64,000 nucleotides of DNA, from the IMG/VR virus record IMGVR_UViG_3300032280_000594; one strand, given 5' to 3'. The DNA comes from a virus (Duplodnaviria; Heunggongvirae; Uroviricota; Caudoviricetes). Shown here one piece after another: positions 11,928-62,727 of this stretch (within the stretch, counting starts at the first letter, position 1; every line of letters starts with the position of its first letter). The notes beneath the pieces were generated by a model, which was not told where the DNA came from, did no database searches, and saw only the letters and a list, made by a program, of their open reading frames with translations. The position numbers were made by a program, and so were the translations under genes.

Positions 11928-12365
11928 TTAAAAATTTCTAAACCAAGCTTTCTTGACTTCTTTATCCTCTTTTTTAACAACCCTAATAAATAAAGTAGCA
12001 ATCTCCTTATTATCCGGTAAATCATCTAACTGATTTAGTTTTAACTCTTCCTGTTTATTCCATGTTTCCCCATATAGGTTTTTACCATGATAAATAATAC
12101 CCATCGCTGGCTCTGAACCATTATCATAATACAATTCGTAATCCTTTAATAAAAAATGTAAGAAAGGTAAAATCTGATCCTTCATCTGTGACCATAAACT
12201 ATTACTCGACTCAGGAGTTCCTATCATTATTTGATGATAGTAATCTCCTTCAAACTTTGAAATCCTTACCTTAAAACCCTCATCAATCAAATAAGCTAAG
12301 TGAGTATCACAGAAATCCTGCAACTCATCCTTTAAACTCTCATTAAACCTTCTCAAATGTTTCAT
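11928..12365 (-). CDS. FamA protein
   Basis: MKHLRRFNES; FCDTHLAYLIDEGF; WSQMKDQILPFL. Confidence 0.65.
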   Translation of the reverse strand: MKHLRRFNESLKDELQDFCDTHLAYLIDEGFKVRISKFEGDYYHQIMIGTPESSNSLWSQMKDQILPFLHFLLKDYELYYDNGSEPAMGIIYHGKNLYGETWNKQEELKLNQLDDLPDNKEIATLFIRVVKKEDKEVKKAWFRNF

Positions 12366-12584
12366 ACCTCTTTCTTATTTTTAACATTAAATGAAATACG
12401 GTCATTTACTACCTCATCCCAACTACTATTGGTAACCCTGCGTAAAGATAAAATCACAGGAAAGTAATGTTTATCCTGTTGATAATCATCAATAATAACA
12501 TTCAACCCCTCATCCAAAATCTTTTATCTCTTGCTCATCTAAAACCTCTGAATTACTTTCGTTATACTTCTTTATGTATCTCAT
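12362..12584 (-). pseudogene. FamA pseudogene with two frameshifts
   Basis: frame 1 MRYIKKYNESNSEVLDEQEIKDFG-stop; frame 2 DEGLNVIIDDYQQDKHYFPVILSLRRVTNSSGMR-stop; frame 3 WDEVVNDRISFNVKNKKEV-stop ending in the ATGA of the 12365 gene; the three pieces match leader, DEGF core and W-D-KD-IPF motif. Confidence 0.5.
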
Positions 12585-12700
12585 CACTGCAATTTATTTT
12601 AAAACCCCACGTGCGTCAGCACGTTTACGACTCCGACGACCCCCAAACTCCTTGCCGTAGGCAACGGCTCCCCGAACCCCTGATTGGTCCCACCACAATC

Positions 12701-13120
12701 CTAATCCTTCTTAAAACCCTTAACCATCAACTTAACCGTAGTAACCAAAAAATCCGGCGACTCATCATTCATTATCTGATCCACAGTAAATAACTTCTTT
12801 GAAGCATCCCACTGCTCTGTACTATAAAAATAAACCAATTGAGCCAACTCAAACCTCCTCGACAAAACACGAACCAACGGAATAAACCTATCCATCACCA
12901 AAGAATAATCATATAAATTATTTACCATAGAACCATCAGTGAAAGATAACCTTATATCAAACTCACCACCCCAAGCCGGTCTTACCTCATAAGTAAACCC
13001 ATCATCCTCCAATGGTGCCAAAAATGGCTCACAAATATCATCCAACTGATCCTGTAAATCATCACCTTTTAACCTAACATAGAAATCAGACTCCATAAAA
13101 CTTTTTAAATACCTCATCAT
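12701..13120 (-). CDS. FamA protein inside the compositionally atypical island
   Basis: MMRYLKSFMES; ICEPFLAPLEDDGF; GC-richer codons (R,P,A,G,V rich) than other members. Confidence 0.6.
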   Translation of the reverse strand: MMRYLKSFMESDFYVRLKGDDLQDQLDDICEPFLAPLEDDGFTYEVRPAWGGEFDIRLSFTDGSMVNNLYDYSLVMDRFIPLVRVLSRRFELAQLVYFYSTEQWDASKKLFTVDQIMNDESPDFLVTTVKLMVKGFKKD

Positions 13121-13144
13121 ATACTTATATATAAAATCACCACA

Positions 13145-13432
13145 ATGAAATTACCAAAATCAAAGTATTATATCAAAAATATAATCGAAACAATACAACT
13201 AGACCCCTACACAACCATCGAAATCGATGCCTTCTACGATACCACACACAAAGGTAACCGATACTCCTGCACCGTAACACACCAACTAGGAACAGCCATA
13301 TGCGGCGGCTACGGCACAAATAACGAAATAACACTCAAAACATACGAAAGCGCACTACTATACGCACTAGAACTAGCCAACGCAGATAAACAAACAATAA
13401 GAAACTTTAGACTAAAACTACTACTATCATGA
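13145..13432 (+). CDS. hypothetical protein
   Basis: ORF track 95 aa; A+C-rich coding strand like the adjacent ung. Confidence 0.45.
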   Translation: MKLPKSKYYIKNIIETIQLDPYTTIEIDAFYDTTHKGNRYSCTVTHQLGTAICGGYGTNNEITLKTYESALLYALELANADKQTIRNFRLKLLLS

Positions 13433-14067
13433 TACAATTACCCCAAGAACTACTGCCTTGCAGAGTGTCAGAGACACTACAACAATTCATAGATAAAGAA
13501 TACTCGCAACACCAATGCTTTCCACCAAAACACCTTATACTACACGCACTAACCAACCTTAATAACACCAAAGTTGTTATAATAGGTCAAGACCCATACC
13601 ACGGTGAAAACCAAGCACACGGTCTAGCTTTCTCCACCCTAGACAAAACTATCCCACCATCACTGAAAAATATCTTTAAAGAGCTTAAAAATGATTTAAA
13701 CATCGAAACACCTAACCACGGTAACCTAACCAATTGGCATAACCAAGGTGTACTTCTTCTTAATACAATACTAACAGTAAGAAAAAATCAACCACTATCT
13801 CATAAGAATAAAGGTTGGGAACAATTTACCAATAACATCATATCAGAACTAAATAATAATAAGAATAATCTCGTATTCATTCTATGGGGTGCCCAAGCAC
13901 ATAAAACAGAGAAACTAATCGATAACACAAAACACCTTATACTAAAGTCTGGCCATCCATCACCACTATCTGCGAACCAAGGGAAATGGTTCAACAATAA
14001 ACACTTTAGTAAAACTAATCAATACCTTATAGATAATATGATAACTCCTATAGATTGGACATTATAA
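13429..14067 (+). CDS. ung: uracil-DNA glycosylase, family 1
   Basis: water-activating motif VVIIGQDPYHGENQAHGLAFS, LLLNTILTV, C-terminal HPSPLSANQG; ATGA overlap with upstream ORF. Confidence 0.85.
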   Translation: MIQLPQELLPCRVSETLQQFIDKEYSQHQCFPPKHLILHALTNLNNTKVVIIGQDPYHGENQAHGLAFSTLDKTIPPSLKNIFKELKNDLNIETPNHGNLTNWHNQGVLLLNTILTVRKNQPLSHKNKGWEQFTNNIISELNNNKNNLVFILWGAQAHKTEKLIDNTKHLILKSGHPSPLSANQGKWFNNKHFSKTNQYLIDNMITPIDWTL

Positions 14068-14070
14068 AAG

Positions 14071-14241
14071 ATGGAAGAAATAACAATACAATGCCAATCA
14101 TGTTATGAACCATTCGACACTTTATATGTGGTGAACGATGGTCGACCTTACGACTTTTGCTGTTCGATGAGATGCTATAACGAGTATCATACAATAGAGA
14201 ATATAAGAGATAGAAAACTTAAAAATCTATTAGACCAGTAA
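14071..14241 (+). CDS. small Cys-rich (zinc-ribbon-like) protein with FamB tail
   Basis: 56 aa MEEITIQCQSCYEPF...DFCCSMRCYNEYHTIENIRDRKLKNLLDQ; not in ORF track (<60 aa); starts 3 nt after ung stop. Confidence 0.4.
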   Translation: MEEITIQCQSCYEPFDTLYVVNDGRPYDFCCSMRCYNEYHTIENIRDRKLKNLLDQ

Positions 14242-14277
14242 ATATACAATAAAAAGTGTGAACTACCAAGTATGTAG

Positions 14278-14297
14278 AAAAAACGACCGTTTTTTAC
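14278..14297. promoter_or_regulatory. A/T-stem palindrome, variant copy A (gaaaaaacgaccgttttttac)
   Basis: palindromic AAAACG-AC-CGTTTT; related to motif copies B-I. Confidence 0.3.
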
Positions 14298-14431
14298 TCA
14301 AATTTTAAGTTGATCCTATACGCACTTGTAAGGTTGTCACCAAAACCCTTTCCAAGGTTATTACATTTATTTGCAGACGCACGTAACTTTTCGCATTATT
14401 TTGAATATATATAGAAAGAAAAAGTTTGACT

Positions 14432-14620
14432 ATGTTTGATAGAGCGAAGAGGGGTTACAAGCCACCTAAACCACAGAGAAGCAGAATAAATTTCTTTATG
14501 GACAAAACCATTTATGACCGGTTAGAAGAGTTCTGTGAGAAGAATGATTATAAGAGAAACGAATTGATCGAATGTATCTTAGAGGAGTTTTTGAATAAGT
14601 ATGGAACCAAGAAGAAGTAA
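14432..14620 (+). CDS. ribbon-helix-helix (CopG/Arc-like) DNA-binding protein
   Basis: track ORF starts at TTG 14426; first ATG 14432; RINFFMDKTIYDRL (beta strand) followed by EEFCEKNDYKRNELIECILEEFL (two helices) is the RHH layout. Confidence 0.55.
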   Translation: MFDRAKRGYKPPKPQRSRINFFMDKTIYDRLEEFCEKNDYKRNELIECILEEFLNKYGTKKK

Positions 14621-15160
14621 ATGATGAAAAAGATAGATGTCTAAGAAGTATAGTTAGTTGTCGTTACCAATAGTTCTTTATGGAATGGGTTATAATGAAT
14701 GGTCTAGTGCGAAGCACTCTCTGCATTCGCAGAGTAAACGAGTTCATAGACCGACGAATTTGAGGTGGATAAGAAAGAACTCACGTATGAAAAAGATTAA
14801 AAGGATATATGGATAATAAGTGGTATGAAGATTATATGAGATCACACTCTCATCTACCTGGTTGGGAACAGAGAAGGTGTATAATAAGAAAGATGAAGAT
14901 AATACATATCTTTTCAGGATCGATATATTCCAGATACATTGGTTTGGAGAAATTAGTACGAAGCATATTTTAGAAAATGAAAAGAGAAAATTTGAACACA
15001 CCAATCAATTACTTGCATTCGCAAAGTAGACCTAATAGAACACCTAGACAGCATAGGATTTTAATGAATCGTATGGGAAAGATTTTCAGGTTATTTAGAC
15101 CTGGTGGGATGACTAATGCTGATTGGTATTATAAACTAACAAATAATAGGAATTTATTAA

Positions 15161-15192
15161 GGTGTGTAAAATCCGTTCGTTTTTTACACACC
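15161..15192. promoter_or_regulatory. perfect 11-bp A/T-stem palindrome with CCGTTCG loop (motif copy B)
   Basis: ggtgtgtaaaa-tccgttcgtt-ttttacacacc. Confidence 0.4.
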
Positions 15193-15396
15193 TTTATAAT
15201 TAAAATGCATTACCGACATAACGAACTTCGTTTGTATTAGGATCTGATAAGGTATAAATGTAGTGTATCATAAATTATATTTATATTTTATAGTATATAT
15301 TAAAATATAAGTACGTGAAAGTCTACTCTTCTGATCTTATCAGCCCGTCATCCAGAACAAATATAAGGAGGTTATTTGGTATAACCAAGGATAAAT

Positions 15397-15424
15397 GCAA
15401 AAATCCGTGCGTTTTTTACACACT
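15397..15424. promoter_or_regulatory. motif copy C (gcaaaaatccgtgcgttttttacacac)
   Basis: near-identical to copy B, 230 bp downstream. Confidence 0.4.
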
Positions 15425-15708
15425 TTATAATAAAACTTATCATTAGTGGTTCTATATAATTATATGGGTTGGGTAAATAAGAATGTTTGGTTGGATGAAC
15501 CAGAGGATGATGGGATAACTCATTTCAAGTTTTTGAGAAGGATTAGAAGGAAGACTAGGATAAAGAGAATTTTTGGGATTGGATATGGATTTAAAAAGAA
15601 GGATAGTTGAATCTATACTCTGCAAGATTGAATTAAAGAATGAGGGTTTATTGGAACCTTATTCTTTATTTAATACTATACGTAGGATGAAGATAATAGA
15701 AAGGTTGT

Positions 15709-15975
15709 TTGGTGGTGGAGAAAGGTGATATATTGGTTTGTACGAAGACTTATTGTAGGTATGTTTTATACAATCGTAGTTGGTCCAGAAATATAAAGGA
15801 TAGTAGTTATATTATAATGGCGATAAAGGAAGGTGTAAATGTTTATGTTTCTAATGAAGAGGGAGGTTTGATGTTATTTTCTTTATATGATGATGGTAAG
15901 TTACCGTATTTAGTGGATTATTTTGTTTCGTTGGTGGATTTTCGTGAGGAAAAATTAGAACAATTGGGTTTATGA
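15709..15975 (+). CDS. FamB protein
   Basis: 88 aa, N-term MVVEKGDILVCTKTY, ends FREEKLEQLGL; sits within the repeat-rich low-coding region. Confidence 0.4.
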   Translation: MVVEKGDILVCTKTYCRYVLYNRSWSRNIKDSSYIIMAIKEGVNVYVSNEEGGLMLFSLYDDGKLPYLVDYFVSLVDFREEKLEQLGL

Positions 15976-16216
15976 GAGAGGATAGTGGTTTGACACGGGT
16001 TGATACACCGTTGGATTGGTTAGAAGCAAGGAGAATGCTGATGTCATTTTTTATTGTTCCTAATCGTTTGGTTAAGATAAAACGTTTGGTTGACACATTG
16101 TATAGTAAAGGTGGAAATAATGTCTAAGGTAGAGGATATGAGTGTTTGGGAATTTAATTGGCGTGTACCTATGGGTGTTCGTAGGTTATTAAGGATTACA
16201 AAGATAAAAAAGTTAT

Positions 16217-16247
16217 TTGCAAAAAAATGAACGGATTTTTGACAAAA
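16217..16247. promoter_or_regulatory. motif copy D (ttgcaaaaaaatgaacggatttttgacaa)
   Basis: A/T stem with ATGAACGG loop; shares ATGAACGGATTTTTGACA with copy E. Confidence 0.35.
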
Positions 16248-16504
16248 TGAAAAGGAAGGTGGTTATAAAGGGGGTCTTTAATGATTACTTTACGGGTTAT
16301 AAGGATAAGGAAAGTTCTGTAGTTGTTATAGGATGGTTATAAAGTTATTGAGCAAAGAATGTTAAAGATAAAAAGATTGTTTAGTAATGACGAGTACTAA
16401 CCGTGGTGATATGGCTAAGATCTTTCGTAGGTATGGTAGGATGCGAAAGATAGCTAGTTTATTTGGTTTTGAAAAGGTATGGTTCTTTAAAGGTGTAAAC
16501 AAGT

Positions 16505-22702: not shown

Positions 22703-23136
22703 ATCTTATCTACTATCTTTATATTTATTCCCCAAATAGGATAATCTAAACCGGTTTTATCATTTATCACTTGGTCTAATGATAAATATCTTAATCCACT
22801 TGTAGTATTAAAACAAACGTAAATGTGAGCAGTATCATCTAAATAAGGTATCAACTCATATCTTCTTTGTAACATCTGTAAAAATGGTATGTAGTAATCT
22901 TTTACATCATTCCAATTGAATTTTTGATAACCTATTGCATCATAGTTTTCATTGGGTAAACCTAAACTTACGATTATATGATTCTTTCCTGGATATTTCA
23001 CTTGATCTCTTACAGATAAACTAACATTATAACCTTCATCGTATAGGTAAGCAAATGAGGTATCACAGAACTCTTGTAGTTCTTCTTCAAAATTAAAAGA
23101 GGTTATATCTTCGTTGAATGGTTTAAGGTGTTTCAT
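22699..23136 (-). CDS. FamA protein
   Basis: MKHLKPFNED; FCDTSFAYLYDEGY; WNDVKDYYIPFL. Confidence 0.65.
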   Translation of the reverse strand: MKHLKPFNEDITSFNFEEELQEFCDTSFAYLYDEGYNVSLSVRDQVKYPGKNHIIVSLGLPNENYDAIGYQKFNWNDVKDYYIPFLQMLQRRYELIPYLDDTAHIYVCFNTTSGLRYLSLDQVINDKTGLDYPIWGINIKIVDKI

Positions 23137-44480: not shown

Positions 44481-44498
44481 GTTTTTTATATATAGTTT

Positions 44499-44996
44499 AT
44501 GAAGTATTTAAAAAGGTTCAATGAGAGTGTAAGTGAAGAAGATTTAAGAGACTTCTGTGAAAGTTCATTAGCTTATTTAATGGATGAAGGTTTCACTATT
44601 AAGATTTTTGGAGAAAGAGCATTACCTTATTCAAGTTTACCTAAAAGACAATTCAATATATGGCTACACAAAGATAATTCAAAAGAATTTTTTAAATGGG
44701 ATGATGTAAAAGATTATTATATTCCGTTCTTACAATTATTATCTAATAGATATGAAATATATCATTTCGATAGTAATCAACCAGAAATTAGATTTAGATA
44801 CCGTAAAAAGAGTGATTACTCGTTTGTCAATGTAAATAAAGACTTCAGTTATGGTAGAGTTATCAATGATGATGTATTTGATTCAGAAGGTTATTGGAAA
44901 GATAACATATTCTATAAATGGATACCAGATCCAGATATAGCTGGGATAGGAGTTATCATAAAAGAAAAAACTAATCAAATAAAATTAGAGATATGA
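44499..44996 (+). CDS. FamA protein
   Basis: MKYLKRFNES; FCESSLAYLMDEGF; WDDVKDYYIPFL. Confidence 0.65.
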   Translation: MKYLKRFNESVSEEDLRDFCESSLAYLMDEGFTIKIFGERALPYSSLPKRQFNIWLHKDNSKEFFKWDDVKDYYIPFLQLLSNRYEIYHFDSNQPEIRFRYRKKSDYSFVNVNKDFSYGRVINDDVFDSEGYWKDNIFYKWIPDPDIAGIGVIIKEKTNQIKLEI

Positions 44997-56727: not shown

Positions 56728-57216
56728 ATGAGATACCTAAAGAGTTTTAATGAAGGCACATCCTTTCTACCAGAAGATCTAAATGAACTACAATCTTTTT
56801 GTGAGACTTATTTAGCTTATTTACTGGATGAAGGATTTGGCATACGTGTTAGACATGGTTCTCGTAAAGACAGAGCCCGTATAGAATTTTATAAAGATGA
56901 ACATTGGCATCCAGCTCCTTTTAATTGGAATGATGTTAAAGATCATTACATTCCGTTTTATCAAATGTTATCTAAAGAATATGAAATTAGTAAAATGACG
57001 GATAGAACCTTAGTAGATTGTCAAATAAAATATGGTGCACCAGATTATAAATATGAGGTTAGAGATTGTTCTGTTAAGTTTGAATATAGAAAACCTGCTA
57101 AACAATTATGGGAGACTGAGGCAAAGTGGTTTACAGAAGAGGAGATAATAAATGATAAGGTAGGGGATTTAGGTAGATATGTCGGTGTCATTTCAATTTT
57201 CCTAGATAACAATTAA
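56728..57216 (+). CDS. FamA protein
   Basis: track ORF 56605..57216 trimmed to MRYLKSFNEG; FCETYLAYLLDEGF; WNDVKDHYIPFY. Confidence 0.6.
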   Translation: MRYLKSFNEGTSFLPEDLNELQSFCETYLAYLLDEGFGIRVRHGSRKDRARIEFYKDEHWHPAPFNWNDVKDHYIPFYQMLSKEYEISKMTDRTLVDCQIKYGAPDYKYEVRDCSVKFEYRKPAKQLWETEAKWFTEEEIINDKVGDLGRYVGVISIFLDNN

Positions 57217-61868: not shown

Positions 61869-62314
61869 TGAAATACTTAAAAAGAATTTTTGAAGAAGTA
61901 AATCGTAATGAGTATGTAGAGTTACAGGATTTCTGTGAAATGTATTTAGCATACTTATTGGATGATAGTGATTGGCAAATAGACATATCGATGATTACTC
62001 AGGTTTATCCACATACTGGTCATTATGATGTTTTGATTTGGAGAAAATATGTGATAAATCCAGATGGTTCACACACTTATCCTAATGTTGTTTGGGATGA
62101 TATATCGGATCATTTTATACCATTCTTTAAAGTTCTAACGAATAATTACGAATTAGTACCTAGTGTTGCTCGTAGTATGAAAGATGGAAGTCTTGTTGAT
62201 AATCTGGTAGAATTTTCTGGTGCAAATGTCACAAAGGAAAAGATACTTGGAGATTTGATACCGGGTAATCAACCAGTTAGAAAAATAAAGTTTAAAGTAA
62301 AACGTAAGATATGA
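61868..62314 (+). CDS. FamA protein
   Basis: MKYLKRIFEE; FCEMYLAYLLDD; WDDISDHFIPFF. Confidence 0.65.
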   Translation: MKYLKRIFEEVNRNEYVELQDFCEMYLAYLLDDSDWQIDISMITQVYPHTGHYDVLIWRKYVINPDGSHTYPNVVWDDISDHFIPFFKVLTNNYELVPSVARSMKDGSLVDNLVEFSGANVTKEKILGDLIPGNQPVRKIKFKVKRKI

Positions 62315-62727
62315 AATACTTAAAAGGAATTTTTGAAGCAGCAGGAGAAAAAGTAGAGTTACAAGATTTCTGTGAAATGTATTTAGCGTATCTTATTGAT
62401 GATGGATTTGAAGTTGAAGTTGAAAGAACTTTTGGATTTAAAGACACGTTGACAATTGTTATAAAACCAGAGAAAGGTACTACTACAAGTTGGAATGATA
62501 TAAAAGATAAACTGATTCCATTCTTTTCTATGTTAGTAAAGAATTATAACATTGGTGCAGATCGCGGAACAAACTGTCATCCAAGTTGGTTAGAAAGGAA
62601 GGTTTCATTTTATTCTACAGGTCTAAACTCAAGAACTTCTATAGATATAGATAAATTGATTGAGGATCAACCAGGACATCCAATAACAGGTATTAATTTA
62701 GTACAACTAAACGTACATAAAAAGTAA
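62311..62727 (+). CDS. FamA protein
   Basis: MKYLKGIFEA; FCEMYLAYLIDDGF; WNDIKDKLIPFF. Confidence 0.65.
   Translation: MKYLKGIFEAAGEKVELQDFCEMYLAYLIDDGFEVEVERTFGFKDTLTIVIKPEKGTTTSWNDIKDKLIPFFSMLVKNYNIGADRGTNCHPSWLERKVSFYSTGLNSRTSIDIDKLIEDQPGHPITGINLVQLNVHKK

What the first reader, a model, noticed from the sequence alone, without database searches (positions are those of the whole stretch)
12590..14245. Compositionally foreign island carrying ung: plus strand A+C-rich and G/T-poor regardless of gene orientation, preceded by two G/C-rich hairpins
From about 12590 to 14245 the top strand is dominated by A and C (e.g. ccacacacaaaggtaaccgatactcctgcaccgtaacacaccaactaggaacagcc). It spans the minus-strand FamA gene 12701..13120 (coding strand G+T-rich, residues R/P/A/G/V-rich) and the plus-strand genes 13145..14241 including the family-1 uracil-DNA glycosylase (coding strand A+C-rich). 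Elsewhere in the window coding strands are purine-rich and C-poor. The island starts with an unusual GC-rich segment (12598-12700) containing hairpins acgtgc-gtca-gcacgt and gccgt-aggca-acggc. This looks like a horizontally acquired block, which nevertheless contains a FamA paralog, so the donor was probably a related phage with a different base composition. A strand-specific mutational process is the alternative.
Basis: seen in the sequence. Interest (0 to 1): 0.6.

Follow-up and report, generated by a model that had tools for sequence, protein, structure and literature searches.

The report
Strand-bias peak beside a polarity switch
The odd A+C-rich stretch that carries the uracil-DNA glycosylase gene is probably not imported DNA: it is the strongest part of a strand-specific composition bias that changes sign at a conserved non-coding region next to it, which may be a replication origin of an uncultivated giant phage.

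Summary
The top strand of 12590-14245 is 65% A+C, against a window mean of 48% (SD 5%). The 16 most A+C-rich 400-nt windows of the 64 kb all lie here. At third codon positions the minus-strand FamA gene is 85% G/T and the plus-strand ORF95 is 89% A/C.

The horizontal-transfer reading fails.
- Every relative recovered (11 further distinct loci, ung 80-93% aa identical, synonymous differences 32-54%) shows the same bias.
- The bias follows position, not genes. ORF95-family copies upstream of ung have 80-88% A/C at third positions; copies downstream of ung have 50-62%. One genome holds both (85% and 52%).
- ung loses the bias from 5' to 3' in most of the relatives tested and in the pooled data.

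The island abuts a conserved ~190-nt non-coding region (14245-14430). There an orientation-independent strand asymmetry changes sign, in the window and in seven pooled relatives. The polarity is that of a bidirectional replication origin.

Best reading: an in-situ, strand-specific substitution bias, mitochondrial H-strand-like (A>G and C>T on the bottom strand), peaking next to a candidate origin of a ~0.6 Mb phage. The mechanism is inferred, not shown. It is a new variant of a known kind, of moderate interest.

The parts
12598..12700 (-). Conserved GC-rich non-coding element, immediately 3' of the hot-zone FamA gene. It contains the hairpins ACGTGC-TGAC-GCACGT and TTGCC-TWC-GGCAA (minus-strand sense). 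It marks the step-up of the bias on the left.
   Evidence: 81-97% nt identity in 8 of 9 relatives that have enough upstream sequence; absent in L115. The core is invariant and there are no compensatory changes. Fold z = -1.4. No Rfam family matches. Top-strand third-position A+C steps from .66-.71 to .77-.85 across it in the window, L029 and L033.
12701..13120 (-). FamA paralog inside the hot zone. It corresponds to the middle domain of a three-domain 445-473 aa FamA protein in relatives.
   Evidence: Third positions on the coding strand: A .14, C .01, G .38, T .47. Two-fold codons: C:T = 2:40 and A:G = 10:34, against 27:27 and 48:33 for A:G in other FamA genes. Homology.
13121..13144 (.). 24-nt divergent junction between the FamA and ORF95 start codons. 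The composition peak lies in the 400 nt to its right.
   Evidence: Meta-profile of 9 genomes aligned on this junction: A+C is .64-.72 in every genome at 0 to +400.
13145..13432 (+). ORF95, a conserved small gene of unknown function. It is the upstream copy of a family that in other genomes lies downstream of ung.
   Evidence: Third-position A+C is .80-.88 for upstream copies (5 genomes) and .50-.62 for downstream copies (8 genomes). L114 has both, at .85 and .52. No Pfam, PHROG or NCBIfam hit.
13429..14067 (+). ung, an intact family-1 uracil-DNA glycosylase. Its coding strand is A+C-rich and its protein composition is shifted accordingly.
   Evidence: NCBIfam equivalog models are passed and PDB UDGs match at E = 1e-58. 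A+C is .64-.68 in all clade members, against .46-.55 elsewhere. Pooled third-position A+C falls 5' to 3' by quarters.77.63.65.56. K,N,T,P,H,Q make up 46% of residues, against 35% in bacterial homologs; G,V,F,W,C make up 13% against 21.5%.
14071..14241 (+). ORF56, a small Cys-rich ORF at the fading right edge of the biased domain.
   Evidence: A+C .54, third-position A+C .58.
14245..14430 (.). Conserved non-coding region where the strand bias changes sign; the candidate replication origin or boundary. Its left part holds a terminator-like palindrome AAAAAACGACCGTTTTTT (14278-14295).
   Evidence: Many invariant columns across 8 genomes, although the flanking coding DNA is only 71-77% identical. 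Ten genomes anchored on its motif AGTTGATCCTAT (window 14308) show A+C of .64-.66 from -2100 to -750, falling to .53-.55 just left of the motif and .45-.50 to its right. The change-point scan puts the switch at 14.0-14.5 kb. The palindrome family occurs at 6 sites, several of which I read as gene ends.
14426..14620 (+). Arc/CopG-like ribbon-helix-helix regulator gene, immediately right of the switch. It is present in all relatives.
   Evidence: phrog_3180 Arc-like repressor, E = 3e-8. Weak PF10723 hit. Synteny.
15450..16300 (+). Weaker mirror zone. It is the most G+T-rich top-strand stretch of the window and is filled with small plus-strand ORFs.
   Evidence: The lowest 400-nt A+C values in the window are .35-.37 at 15601-15801. 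Third positions: A .28, C .02, G .29, T .40. The same zone appears in L029, L115 and L120, with third-position A+C of .27-.39 in L115 and L120.

Best explanation
The 'island' is resident DNA. It is the peak of a strand-specific, position-dependent substitution bias that has been maintained in situ in a clade of megaphages.

On the left flank of a conserved ~190-nt non-coding region (14245-14430), the bottom strand is driven towards G+T, so the top strand becomes A+C-rich whichever way the genes point. On the right flank the sign is reversed. Far from the switch the same asymmetry persists at about a third of the amplitude and is independent of gene orientation. On both sides the strand running 5'->3' away from the switch has G>C and T>A. 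That is the signature of the leading strands of a bidirectional replication origin.

The change in the hot zone is mainly A>G, plus C>T, on the bottom strand. Those are the two deamination transitions that shape the vertebrate mitochondrial H strand.

Most likely mechanism (inferred): near the initiation site the parental bottom strand on the left, and the top strand on the right, stay single-stranded for unusually long. This could be a displacement loop, R-loop or delayed lagging-strand priming. Deaminations accumulate there, and over evolutionary time they have dragged synonymous sites to 80-89% A/C and even shifted the amino-acid make-up of the UDG.

ung and ORF95 look foreign only because they are plus-strand genes in a zone whose bias otherwise matches that of the neighbouring minus-strand genes.

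Shown: the composition, its independence of gene orientation, its conservation, its dependence on position, and the polarity switch. Inferred: the mutational cause, single-strandedness, and that the switch is an origin.
For: (1) The bias does not depend on coding orientation. Bottom-strand four-fold sites are T .60, G .23, A .17, C 0 in FamA(-) and T .68, G .29, A .02, C 0 in ORF95(+).

(2) It is conserved. All 11 further distinct relative loci show it, although ung synonymous differences between them are 32-54%. Parsimony counts are close to balance: T>C 72 against C>T 68, and keto>amino 141 against amino>keto 170. Genome-typical pressure would predict roughly 3:1 in favour of C>T.

(3) It depends on position.
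- ORF95-family copies upstream of ung have third-position A+C of .80-.88; copies downstream have .50-.62. Both kinds occur in L114.
- ung third-position A+C falls from the first to the last quarter in all nine relatives tested, monotonically in most, and from .77 to .56 in the pooled data.
- Extra minus-strand genes that lie between ung and the conserved region in L120 and L115 are also A+C-rich on the top strand (.79.61 and .69). The bias then flips to .27-.39 right of the region.
- The right edge of the domain tracks the conserved region, not the distance from ung.

(4) There is a polarity switch in top-strand third-position A+C.
- Window: plus genes .505 left against .415 right; minus genes .63 left against .458 right; p = 7e-5 and 1.5e-4.
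- Best change point: 14.0-14.5 kb, or 12.5-14.5 kb when the hot-zone genes are left out.
- Seven relatives pooled.51 and .62 on the left.40 and .49 on the right.
- The left polarity continues 4.3 kb beyond the window in non-FamA genes.
- The cumulative GC skew of the window has its minimum at 14 kb.

(5) GC content rises from .29 to .36-.39, as expected if A>G dominates on an A-rich strand.

(6) Synonymous divergence in the hot zone is not lower than in the flanks.
Against: - No replication initiator, iterons or DnaA-like boxes were found near the switch. The 52 larger ORFs of the window carry only accessory functions.
- About 75% of the genes right of the switch are on the minus strand. They would be head-on to forks leaving an origin at 14 kb.
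- Only 13-17 kb of the left arm is available. The left-arm minus genes inside the window are almost all FamA paralogs, so a gene-class effect on codon choice could inflate the far-field contrast. In L116 the non-FamA minus genes shift by only +.085.
- Bacterial replichores do not usually show a several-fold rise of skew within 2-3 kb of the origin.
- Mutation and selection on base composition both predict balanced substitution counts at equilibrium, so cannot separate them.
- The parsimony counts are biased by long terminal branches.
- The whole 611,835-nt relative contig could not be read, so a genome-wide V-shaped skew curve is untested.
Confidence: 0.55

Rival explanations
1. Transcription-associated asymmetry. 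Two strong divergent promoters in or near the conserved region drive a leftward unit (antisense through ung, sense through FamA) and a rightward unit (the small-ORF array). The non-template strand of the promoter-proximal 1-3 kb is exposed, possibly as R-loops, and becomes G+T-rich.
For: - Outside the hot zone the coding strands are on average keto-rich and G>C.
- The FamA and ung/ORF95 start codons are only about 20-25 nt apart, so the FamA promoter must lie inside ung or ORF95.
- L115 and L120 have minus-strand genes directly left of the conserved region, and those need a leftward promoter there.
- An Arc-like repressor gene sits at the switch, which is reminiscent of phage early-control regions.
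- The bias decays within 1-3 kb, like promoter-proximal GC skew in R-loop-prone human promoters (PMC3787257, title and abstract seen).
Against: - It cannot explain the far-field asymmetry that is independent of gene orientation over at least 50 kb.
- A bidirectional terminator-like palindrome (14278-14295) lies between the conserved region and ung in the window.
- No conserved leftward promoter motif was found inside ung or ORF95.
- ung's own rightward transcription should counteract the effect.
Confidence: 0.2
2. Selection on nucleotide composition. One strand is kept nearly free of G and T, so neither strand can self-pair and palindromes are rare. This would serve a DNA- or RNA-level function, for example an unstructured single-strand loading zone, avoidance of restriction or promoter-like motifs, or a long unstructured RNA.
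For: - The bias is maintained at equilibrium through large synonymous turnover.
- It is present at all three codon positions of ung and has reshaped the protein.
- The zone is more conserved in nucleotide sequence than its flanks for several relatives.
Against: - Synonymous differences in the hot zone (.12-.54) are not lower than in the flanks (.22-.56), so there is no sign of purifying selection at silent sites.
- The smooth decay on both sides, and the same asymmetry at lower amplitude over tens of kb, fit a graded mutational exposure better than a bounded functional element.
- No function is known that needs 1.5-3 kb of two-letter strand composition.
Confidence: 0.12
3. Ancient horizontal acquisition. 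The block (FamA copy, ORF95, ung) entered the common ancestor of the clade from a donor with an extreme strand composition and has not yet ameliorated.
For: - ung's nearest cellular homologs are Flavobacteriia at no more than 62% identity, with a clear gap below the phage clade, so ung itself was probably captured from a host lineage at some time.
- GC content is higher than the genome average.
Against: - None of the 36 cellular or other viral ung genes examined approaches this composition.
- Paralogs of resident families (FamA, ORF95) take on the bias only when they sit in the zone.
- There is a gradient inside ung.
- Substitution counts are near balance rather than decaying toward the genome norm, despite synonymous differences of .32-.54.
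- No tRNA, integrase or flanking direct repeats were found.
- The block sits exactly at a genome-wide polarity switch.
Confidence: 0.06
4. Chance fluctuation or assembly artefact.
For: None.
Against: z is about 4.2 and the region is unique in 64 kb. Identical or related sequence is found in many independent assemblies from ENA, JGI and Logan.
Confidence: 0.01

Closest known systems
Replication-associated strand compositional asymmetry (leading strand G>C and T>A; sign change at the origin; in Borrelia strong enough that codon usage depends on the replication strand). From my own knowledge: Lobry 1996; McInerney 1998.
   Same: The asymmetry is independent of gene orientation. It changes sign at one point, with origin polarity. 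Genes on the 'wrong' strand carry the complementary codon bias.
   Different: The amplitude rises about 3- to 6-fold within 2-3 kb of the switch, to 80-89% A/C at third positions. Bacterial replichores are roughly flat. The host here is an uncultivated ~0.6 Mb phage, and no initiator gene or boxes were identified.
Vertebrate mitochondrial H/L-strand asymmetry, with gradients set by the time spent single-stranded (from my own knowledge: Reyes 1998; Faith and Pollock 2003).
   Same: One strand is A+C-rich and the other G+T-rich, irrespective of coding strand (the ND6 case). The dominant changes are A>G and C>T on the exposed strand. There is a gradient with distance. The magnitude is comparable or greater.
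   Different: It is confined to a few kb of a very large double-stranded DNA phage genome. Strand-displacement replication has not been shown.
Promoter-proximal GC skew and R-loop zones of human CpG-island promoters (Ginno et al. 2013, PMC3787257).
   Same: A 1-2 kb zone of strand asymmetry that starts at a fixed regulatory region and decays with distance.
   Different: There the skew follows the direction of transcription. Here ung and ORF95 carry the skew opposite to their own transcription, and the A/T asymmetry is as strong as the G/C asymmetry.
Horizontally acquired genomic island.
   Same: Locally atypical composition and raised GC content, and an auxiliary gene (ung) of probable cellular origin.
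   Different: It is present with the same composition in all relatives. The composition follows position rather than genes. There are no mobility genes, tRNA or border repeats. The bias is complementary on the two coding orientations, which no donor codon usage can give.
Family-1 uracil-DNA glycosylase (Ung).
   Same: Passes the equivalog HMMs, aligns along its full length to solved UDGs, and keeps the motifs GQDPYH, PPS, GVLLLN and HPSPLS.
   Different: The amino-acid composition is shifted towards N, T and H and away from V, F, G and A, following the nucleotide bias.

Membership tests
Horizontally acquired genomic island | Composition atypical for the recipient genome | tested here: met
   A+C .65 against .48, z about 4.2; GC .37 against .29.
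Horizontally acquired genomic island | Patchy distribution: absent from, or compositionally different in, close relatives | tested here: not met
   Present with the same composition in all relatives recovered through ung. All relatives recovered through the neighbouring RHH gene that had enough upstream sequence also carry it.
Horizontally acquired genomic island | Composition travels with the genes (donor signature) | tested here: not met
   ORF95-family copies have third-position A+C of .80-.88 upstream of ung and .50-.62 downstream. There is a gradient inside ung. Unrelated extra genes in the zone are also biased.
Horizontally acquired genomic island | Mobility hallmarks at the borders (tRNA, integrase or transposase, direct repeats) | tested here: not met
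   No tRNA. No integrase, transposase or RT among 52 ORFs. No flanking direct repeats.
Replication-origin strand-skew switch | Strand asymmetry independent of gene orientation that changes sign at one locus | tested here: met
   A two-by-two comparison of side and orientation in the window and in seven relatives; change point at 14.0-14.5 kb.
Replication-origin strand-skew switch | Origin polarity: G>C and T>A on the strand running 5'->3' away from the switch on both sides | tested here: met
   Right arm, top strand third positions: G .12-.13 > C .07-.08 and T .42-.45 > A .34-.37. Left arm and hot zone are the reverse. Cumulative GC-skew minimum at 14 kb.
Replication-origin strand-skew switch | Conserved non-coding region at the switch | tested here: met
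   About 190 nt with many invariant columns in 8 genomes; the profile switches at it in 10 genomes.
Replication-origin strand-skew switch | Origin sequence features or an adjacent initiator (iterons, DnaA boxes, AT-rich unwinding element, Rep or primase gene) | tested here: inconclusive
   No initiator gene was found. The repeated palindromes look like terminators. An AT-rich stretch at 15240-15320 flanked by hairpins lies 0.8-1 kb to the right.
Replication-origin strand-skew switch | Genome-wide V-shaped cumulative skew and a read-depth maximum at the locus | not testable with these tools
   Only 20 kb of the 611,835-nt contig and no read data could be obtained.
Single-strand deamination asymmetry (mitochondrial H-strand type) | Excess of A>G and C>T products on one strand at silent sites, in genes of both orientations | tested here: met
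   Bottom-strand four-fold sites are T about .64, G about .26, A about .1, C 0 in both FamA(-) and ORF95(+). Background is T about .5, A about .37, G about .06, C about .05.
Single-strand deamination asymmetry (mitochondrial H-strand type) | Gradient of the asymmetry with distance from the initiation site | tested here: met
   Meta-profiles and ung quarters.
Single-strand deamination asymmetry (mitochondrial H-strand type) | The strand is demonstrably single-stranded for long periods | not testable with these tools
   Needs experiments.
Transcription-associated strand asymmetry | The non-template (coding) strand of each gene is the G+T-rich one | tested here: not met
   The ung and ORF95 coding strands are A+C-rich. 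Right-arm minus genes have slightly A+C-rich coding strands.
Family-1 uracil-DNA glycosylase | Passes curated equivalog models and keeps the catalytic motifs | tested here: met
   NF003592 275.5 bits (cut-off 162); TIGR00628 239 bits (cut-off 185.75). PDB 1akz and others at E = 1e-58. The motifs are visible in the translation.

The most novel reading that the evidence does not exclude
The conserved non-coding region is the replication origin of these megaphages, and initiation there uses a long-lived displacement loop or R-loop, analogous to the mitochondrial D-loop. This loop keeps 2-3 kb of one strand on each side single-stranded and creates a standing, strand-specific deamination zone. The phage's own uracil-DNA glycosylase gene, and a rapidly rearranging multi-domain FamA gene, sit in the most deamination-prone DNA of the genome. 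That placement may be functional, either as co-regulation of uracil repair with initiation or as locally accelerated diversification.
Probability: 0.2. Interest if true: 0.75.

Novelty: new variant of a known kind. Interest (0 to 1): 0.5.

Why it matters
It shows that an apparently 'foreign' island can be produced in place by strand-specific pressure. That is a caution for composition-based detection of horizontal transfer in phages.

It gives a concrete, testable candidate for the replication origin of an uncultivated clade of ~0.6 Mb phages, defined to about 200 nt and conserved in every relative.

It also provides a natural experiment. Paralogs of the same gene sit inside and outside the zone, and an enzyme (UDG) has had its amino-acid composition dragged by the bias. 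Together these show how strongly local mutation pressure can reshape codons and proteins.

If the amplitude really reflects prolonged single-strandedness at initiation, it says something about how these giant phages start replication.

Tried and rejected
- Nucleotide searches of the island against GenBank phages found nothing, in both near and distant modes. IMG/VR holds no close member of the ung clade; the best hit is 54%.
- Rfam found nothing in 12000-15000.
- The GC-rich element shows no covariation and only a weak fold z-score, so a structured RNA could not be supported.
- Promoter scans gave no more sites than shuffles and nothing conserved among relatives. I scanned for sigma-70 sites and for the TAnnTTTG consensus.
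- A 9-mer from the left element (GACGCACGT) recurs inverted at 14376, suggesting paired boundary sites. It is conserved only in L115, so I dropped it.
- Inversion of the block is rejected on logic: inversion does not change the composition of a coding strand.
- Translational codon selection is rejected, because the two orientations prefer complementary codon sets.
- I considered an overlapping antisense gene inside ung. The long antisense ORFs are expected from the scarcity of A on that strand, and ung's silent sites are not unusually constrained.
- Local hypermutation, meaning an elevated rate, is not supported. Synonymous divergence in the zone is no higher than in the flanks.
- The repeated AAAAWHCGNNCGTTTTTT palindromes were considered as iterons. 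Several lie at gene ends as far as 22.4 kb, so they are more likely terminators.
- The search for relatives lacking ung through the RHH neighbour found none.
Full report
**1. The observation**

The stretch 12590-14245 has a top strand of A .399, C .252, G .117, T .232. That gives A+C = .651 and GC = .369, against .482 and .294 for the whole window. Among all 400-nt windows (mean A+C .482, SD .050) the 16 richest in A+C all start between 12401 and 13901. The maximum is .6925 (z about 4.2) and the next best anywhere is .5875.

Gene by gene the anomaly is sharper:

| Gene | Coding-strand A+C | A+C at third positions |
|---|---|---|
| FamA 12701-13120(-) | .33 | .15 |
| ORF95 13145-13432(+) | .70 | .89 |
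| ung 13429-14067(+) | .65 | .64 |
| all 144 ORFs, mean (SD) | .515 (.055) | |

ung also has a GC skew of -.33.

At four-fold degenerate sites the ORF95 coding strand is A .68, C .29, G 0, T .02, and the FamA coding strand is A .17, C 0, G .23, T .60. Background genes have T .45-.62, A .31-.44, G .03-.09, C .03-.07. Read on the bottom strand, the two genes converge on the same composition, about T .64, G .26, A .1, C 0, although they are coded on opposite strands.

The two hairpins are there. ung is a bona fide family-1 UDG. The FamA copy is a true paralog. ORF56 (14071-14241) is only weakly affected, and the bias fades from about 13900.

**2. What the window is**

There is no nucleotide match among GenBank phages. 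A 751-aa protein of the window weakly matches a 642-kb uncultured phage.

The exact UDG protein occurs on several metagenome contigs. Two of them are identical to the window and one is 98.9% identical. A protein search shows a tight clade of about 76 UDG clusters at 80-93% identity, on contigs up to 611,835 nt. Below that there is a gap down to at most 62%, where the hits are Flavobacteriia. So the window belongs to an uncultivated megaphage clade. A relative encodes a Por_Secre_tail domain, which suggests a Bacteroidota host.

Synteny is conserved: a HAD gene, a leftward FamA array, ung, a non-coding gap, an Arc-like RHH gene, and then an array of small rightward ORFs.

**3. Test of the horizontal-transfer reading**

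All 11 further distinct relative loci have the same ung composition: A+C .64-.68. In 36 cellular and other viral ung genes of similar GC, A+C is .46-.55, with one at .59. The profile around ung is the same in all relatives.

Between relatives, 32-54% of ung synonymous sites differ, so the bias has survived extensive silent turnover. Parsimony counts on 12 ung sequences are near balance: T>C 72 against C>T 68, G>A 16 against A>G 28, and keto>amino 141 against amino>keto 170. Decay towards the genome norm would predict about three C>T for each T>C. These counts are rough, because the terminal branches are long.

There are no tRNA genes, mobility genes or border repeats.

**4. The bias follows position, not genes**

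(a) The ORF95 family occupies two positions. Between FamA and ung (window, L033, L034, L114, L115) its third-position A+C is .80-.88. Downstream of ung (L026, L029, L031, L035, L036, L112, L113, and a second copy in L114) it is .50-.62. L114 has both copies, at .85 and .52.

(b) Inside ung, third-position A+C is lower in the last quarter than in the first in all nine relatives tested, falling monotonically in most. The pooled quarters are .77.63.65 and .56.

(c) The window's hot-zone FamA gene is the middle domain of a three-domain 445-473 aa protein in L029, L031, L033 and L112. Where the gene is longer, the biased domain is longer: up to 2.2 kb between the GC-rich element and ung in L033.

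(d) L120 and L115 carry additional, unrelated minus-strand genes between ung and the non-coding gap. These are also A+C-rich on the top strand (third-position A+C .79.61 and .69). Immediately right of the gap the value drops to .27-.39.

(e) Aligned on the FamA/ung junction, nine genomes all show A+C of .64-.72 in the first 400 nt to the right, whichever gene lies there.

**5. The bias acts at the DNA-strand level**

The two orientations prefer complementary codon sets. Two-fold codons give C:T = 2:40 and A:G = 10:34 in FamA, against 17:8 and 18:1 in ORF95. That excludes translational selection.

The pressure has also reached the protein. In the phage clade's UDG, K,N,T,P,H,Q make up 46% of residues, against 35% in bacterial homologs. 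G,V,F,W,C make up 13% against 21.5%. The catalytic motifs are intact.

Relative to neighbouring minus-strand genes, the main change is A>G on the bottom strand. G/(A+G) at four-fold sites rises from about .15-.2 to about .6-.9, and the remaining C is lost. This also explains the raised GC content.

**6. The island lies at a strand-polarity switch**

Third-codon-position composition of the top strand was compared by side and by gene orientation. The table gives top-strand A+C at third positions.

| Data set | Left, plus genes | Left, minus genes | Right, plus genes | Right, minus genes |
|---|---|---|---|---|
| Window | .505 (n=13) | .63 (n=7-8) | .415 (n=25) | .458 (n=76) |
| Seven relatives pooled | .51 | .62 | .40 | .49 |

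In the window, genes right of 14.3 kb have almost the same top-strand composition whichever way they point. Plus genes are A .34, C .07, G .13, T .45 and minus genes are A .37, C .08, G .12, T .42. The left-right differences within each orientation give Mann-Whitney p = 7e-5 (plus) and 1.5e-4 (minus).

A model with an orientation term (about .03-.05) and a side term (about .06-.07) fits all four classes. A change-point scan puts the switch at 14.0-14.5 kb, or anywhere in 12.5-14.5 kb when the hot-zone genes are left out.

In the hot zone of the seven relatives the values are .65 (plus) and .73 (minus). A contig that extends the window 4.3 kb to the left shows non-FamA genes at .51 (plus) and .54 (minus), so the left polarity continues. 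The window's cumulative GC skew has its minimum at 14 kb.

The polarity (G>C and T>A on the strand leaving the switch on both sides) is that of a bidirectional origin rather than a terminus.

The window's most G+T-rich top-strand stretch is at 15.5-16.2 kb, with A+C of .35. It lies only 1.5 kb from the most A+C-rich one and is a weaker mirror image.

**7. The switch maps to a conserved non-coding region**

The gap between the ung operon and the RHH gene (window 14245-14430) contains about 190 nt with many invariant columns in eight genomes. The surrounding coding DNA is only 71-77% identical.

Ten genomes were anchored on its motif AGTTGATCCTAT. The mean A+C is .64-.66 from -2100 to -750.59 at -600 to -450.53-.55 at -300 to 0, and .45-.50 to the right.

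Its left part holds a palindrome, AAAAAACGACCGTTTTTT. This belongs to a family of six sites between 14.2 and 22.4 kb, several at gene ends, so it is probably a terminator.

On the other side of the zone, the GC-rich element 12598-12700 is conserved in 8 of 9 relatives. Its hairpin cores are invariant and show no covariation. The bias steps up across it. L115 has the hot zone without it, so it is not required.

**8. Mechanism**

Shown: a conserved, position-dependent, orientation-independent strand bias that peaks next to a sign switch.

Inferred: the cause is mutational. A>G and C>T on one strand are the products of deamination of adenine and cytosine. The vertebrate mitochondrial H strand shows the same pair of changes, the same independence from coding strand, and a gradient with the time spent single-stranded (established knowledge, not tested here).

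I therefore propose that the conserved region is, or lies next to, an origin of bidirectional replication. The template of the lagging strand next to it, which is the bottom strand on the left and the top strand on the right, would stay single-stranded unusually long at initiation, through a displacement loop, R-loop priming or late priming of the first Okazaki fragment.

Weak points:
- No initiator or origin motifs were found.
- Most right-arm genes would be head-on to forks leaving this origin.
- The left arm is short and rich in FamA genes.
- The genome-wide skew could not be computed.

**9. Rivals**

- Divergent strong transcription with R-loops could explain the near-field peaks and fits the Arc-like regulator. 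It cannot explain the orientation-independent far field, and it is hindered by the terminator-like palindrome.
- Selection for a two-letter strand would predict reduced silent divergence, which is not seen.
- Ancient transfer is contradicted by sections 3 and 4.
- Artefact is excluded by the independent assemblies.

**10. Comparison and novelty**

Strand asymmetry that changes sign at an origin is textbook, and mitochondrial-type gradients are known. What differs here is the several-fold local amplification over 2-3 kb in a giant double-stranded DNA phage. It is strong enough to drive third positions to 80-89% A/C, to give neighbouring genes complementary codon usage, and to reshape a UDG.

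I found no report of such a feature in the full-text searches made. Those searches were narrow and cover only open-access literature.

Verdict: the finding is real, and the horizontal-transfer reading is rejected. It is a new variant of a known kind, of moderate interest, and its main value is a precise and testable origin candidate.

Noticed in passing
window 12362-12587 (-): A frameshifted FamA copy. MRYIKKYNESNSEVLDEQEIKDFG stops, and the family sequence continues in the next frame (LDEGLNVIIDDYQQDKHYFPVILSLRRVTNSSWDEV...). It is either a pseudogene or needs a frameshift.
   Followed up: partly
window 12701-13120 compared with L029 8565-9974, L033 4232-5569, L112 4529-5950, L031 8588-9982: The hot-zone FamA gene varies from one domain (131-147 aa) to three fused domains (445-473 aa) among close relatives. 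The window's copy is the middle domain with a rebuilt N-terminus. The zone is a hotspot of domain deletion and fusion.
   Followed up: partly
window 13145-13432; L114 5717-6004 and 6639-7004: The ORF95 family (motif NRYSC..H..GT.ICGGYG..NEI) lies upstream of ung in some genomes, downstream in others, and in both places in L114. This points to duplication and relocation. ung is 212-214 aa where ORF95 is upstream in most cases, and 200-202 aa where it is not.
   Followed up: partly
window 14640-16500 (+): An array of about ten small ORFs (40-90 aa) sharing a C-terminal motif like R-x-x-K-I-x-R-L/I-F-G (RMKKIKRIYG, RKTRIKRIFGIG, RRMKIIERLFGGG, RITKIKKLFAKK and others). C is only 5-8% of the top strand here.
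   Followed up: no
window 14278, 15168, 15400, 16222, 18926, 22377: The palindrome family AAAAWHCGNNCGTTTTTT occurs at six sites, against 0.7 matches expected. All are within 14.2-22.4 kb and none in the other 50 kb. Several sit at convergent or terminal gene ends, so they are probably bidirectional terminators. The copy at 15154-15199 is embedded in an 18-bp-stem hairpin.
   Followed up: partly
window 15210-15574; L026 14011-14264; L029 12381-12479 and 16404-16514; L031 14847-15067: A mostly non-coding segment, including a very AT-rich stretch at 15240-15320, is 82-91% identical in relatives. It lies at different distances from ung and occurs twice in L029. It may be a mobile or repeated regulatory element.
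   Followed up: no
window 12609-12617 and 14376-14384: The 9-mer ACGTGCGTC of the left element recurs as its reverse complement GACGCACGT in the conserved region right of ung. The right copy is shared only with L115.
   Followed up: yes
window 13526-13542 and 13928-13944: An exact 17-nt direct repeat, CAAAACACCTTATACTA, occurs inside ung, 402 nt apart. Both copies encode K-H-L-I-L.
   Followed up: no
window 23-57 kb compared with 8-12.5, 45-47.3, 57.7-59.9 and 61.4-62.3 kb: There are two compositional classes of genes. Some blocks have strongly G>C, T-ending coding strands (GC skew +.3 to +.5). Long runs of small minus-strand genes have A-rich coding strands with almost no GC skew.
   Followed up: partly
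L003 2213-2965 compared with window 15208 onward: A 98.9%-identical strain variant diverges completely from the window right of 15208 and carries a minus-strand 186-aa gene instead. This is a recombination breakpoint inside the small-ORF array.
   Followed up: no
L120 10156-11205: A relative encodes an Endonuclease_1 protein with a Por_Secre_tail (type IX secretion) domain. This hints at a Bacteroidota host for the clade.
   Followed up: no
window 22753-23136(-), 44496-44768(+), 56728-57168(+), 62311-62703(+): Further FamA-family members are scattered outside the main array. They have ordinary composition for their side of the switch.
   Followed up: partly
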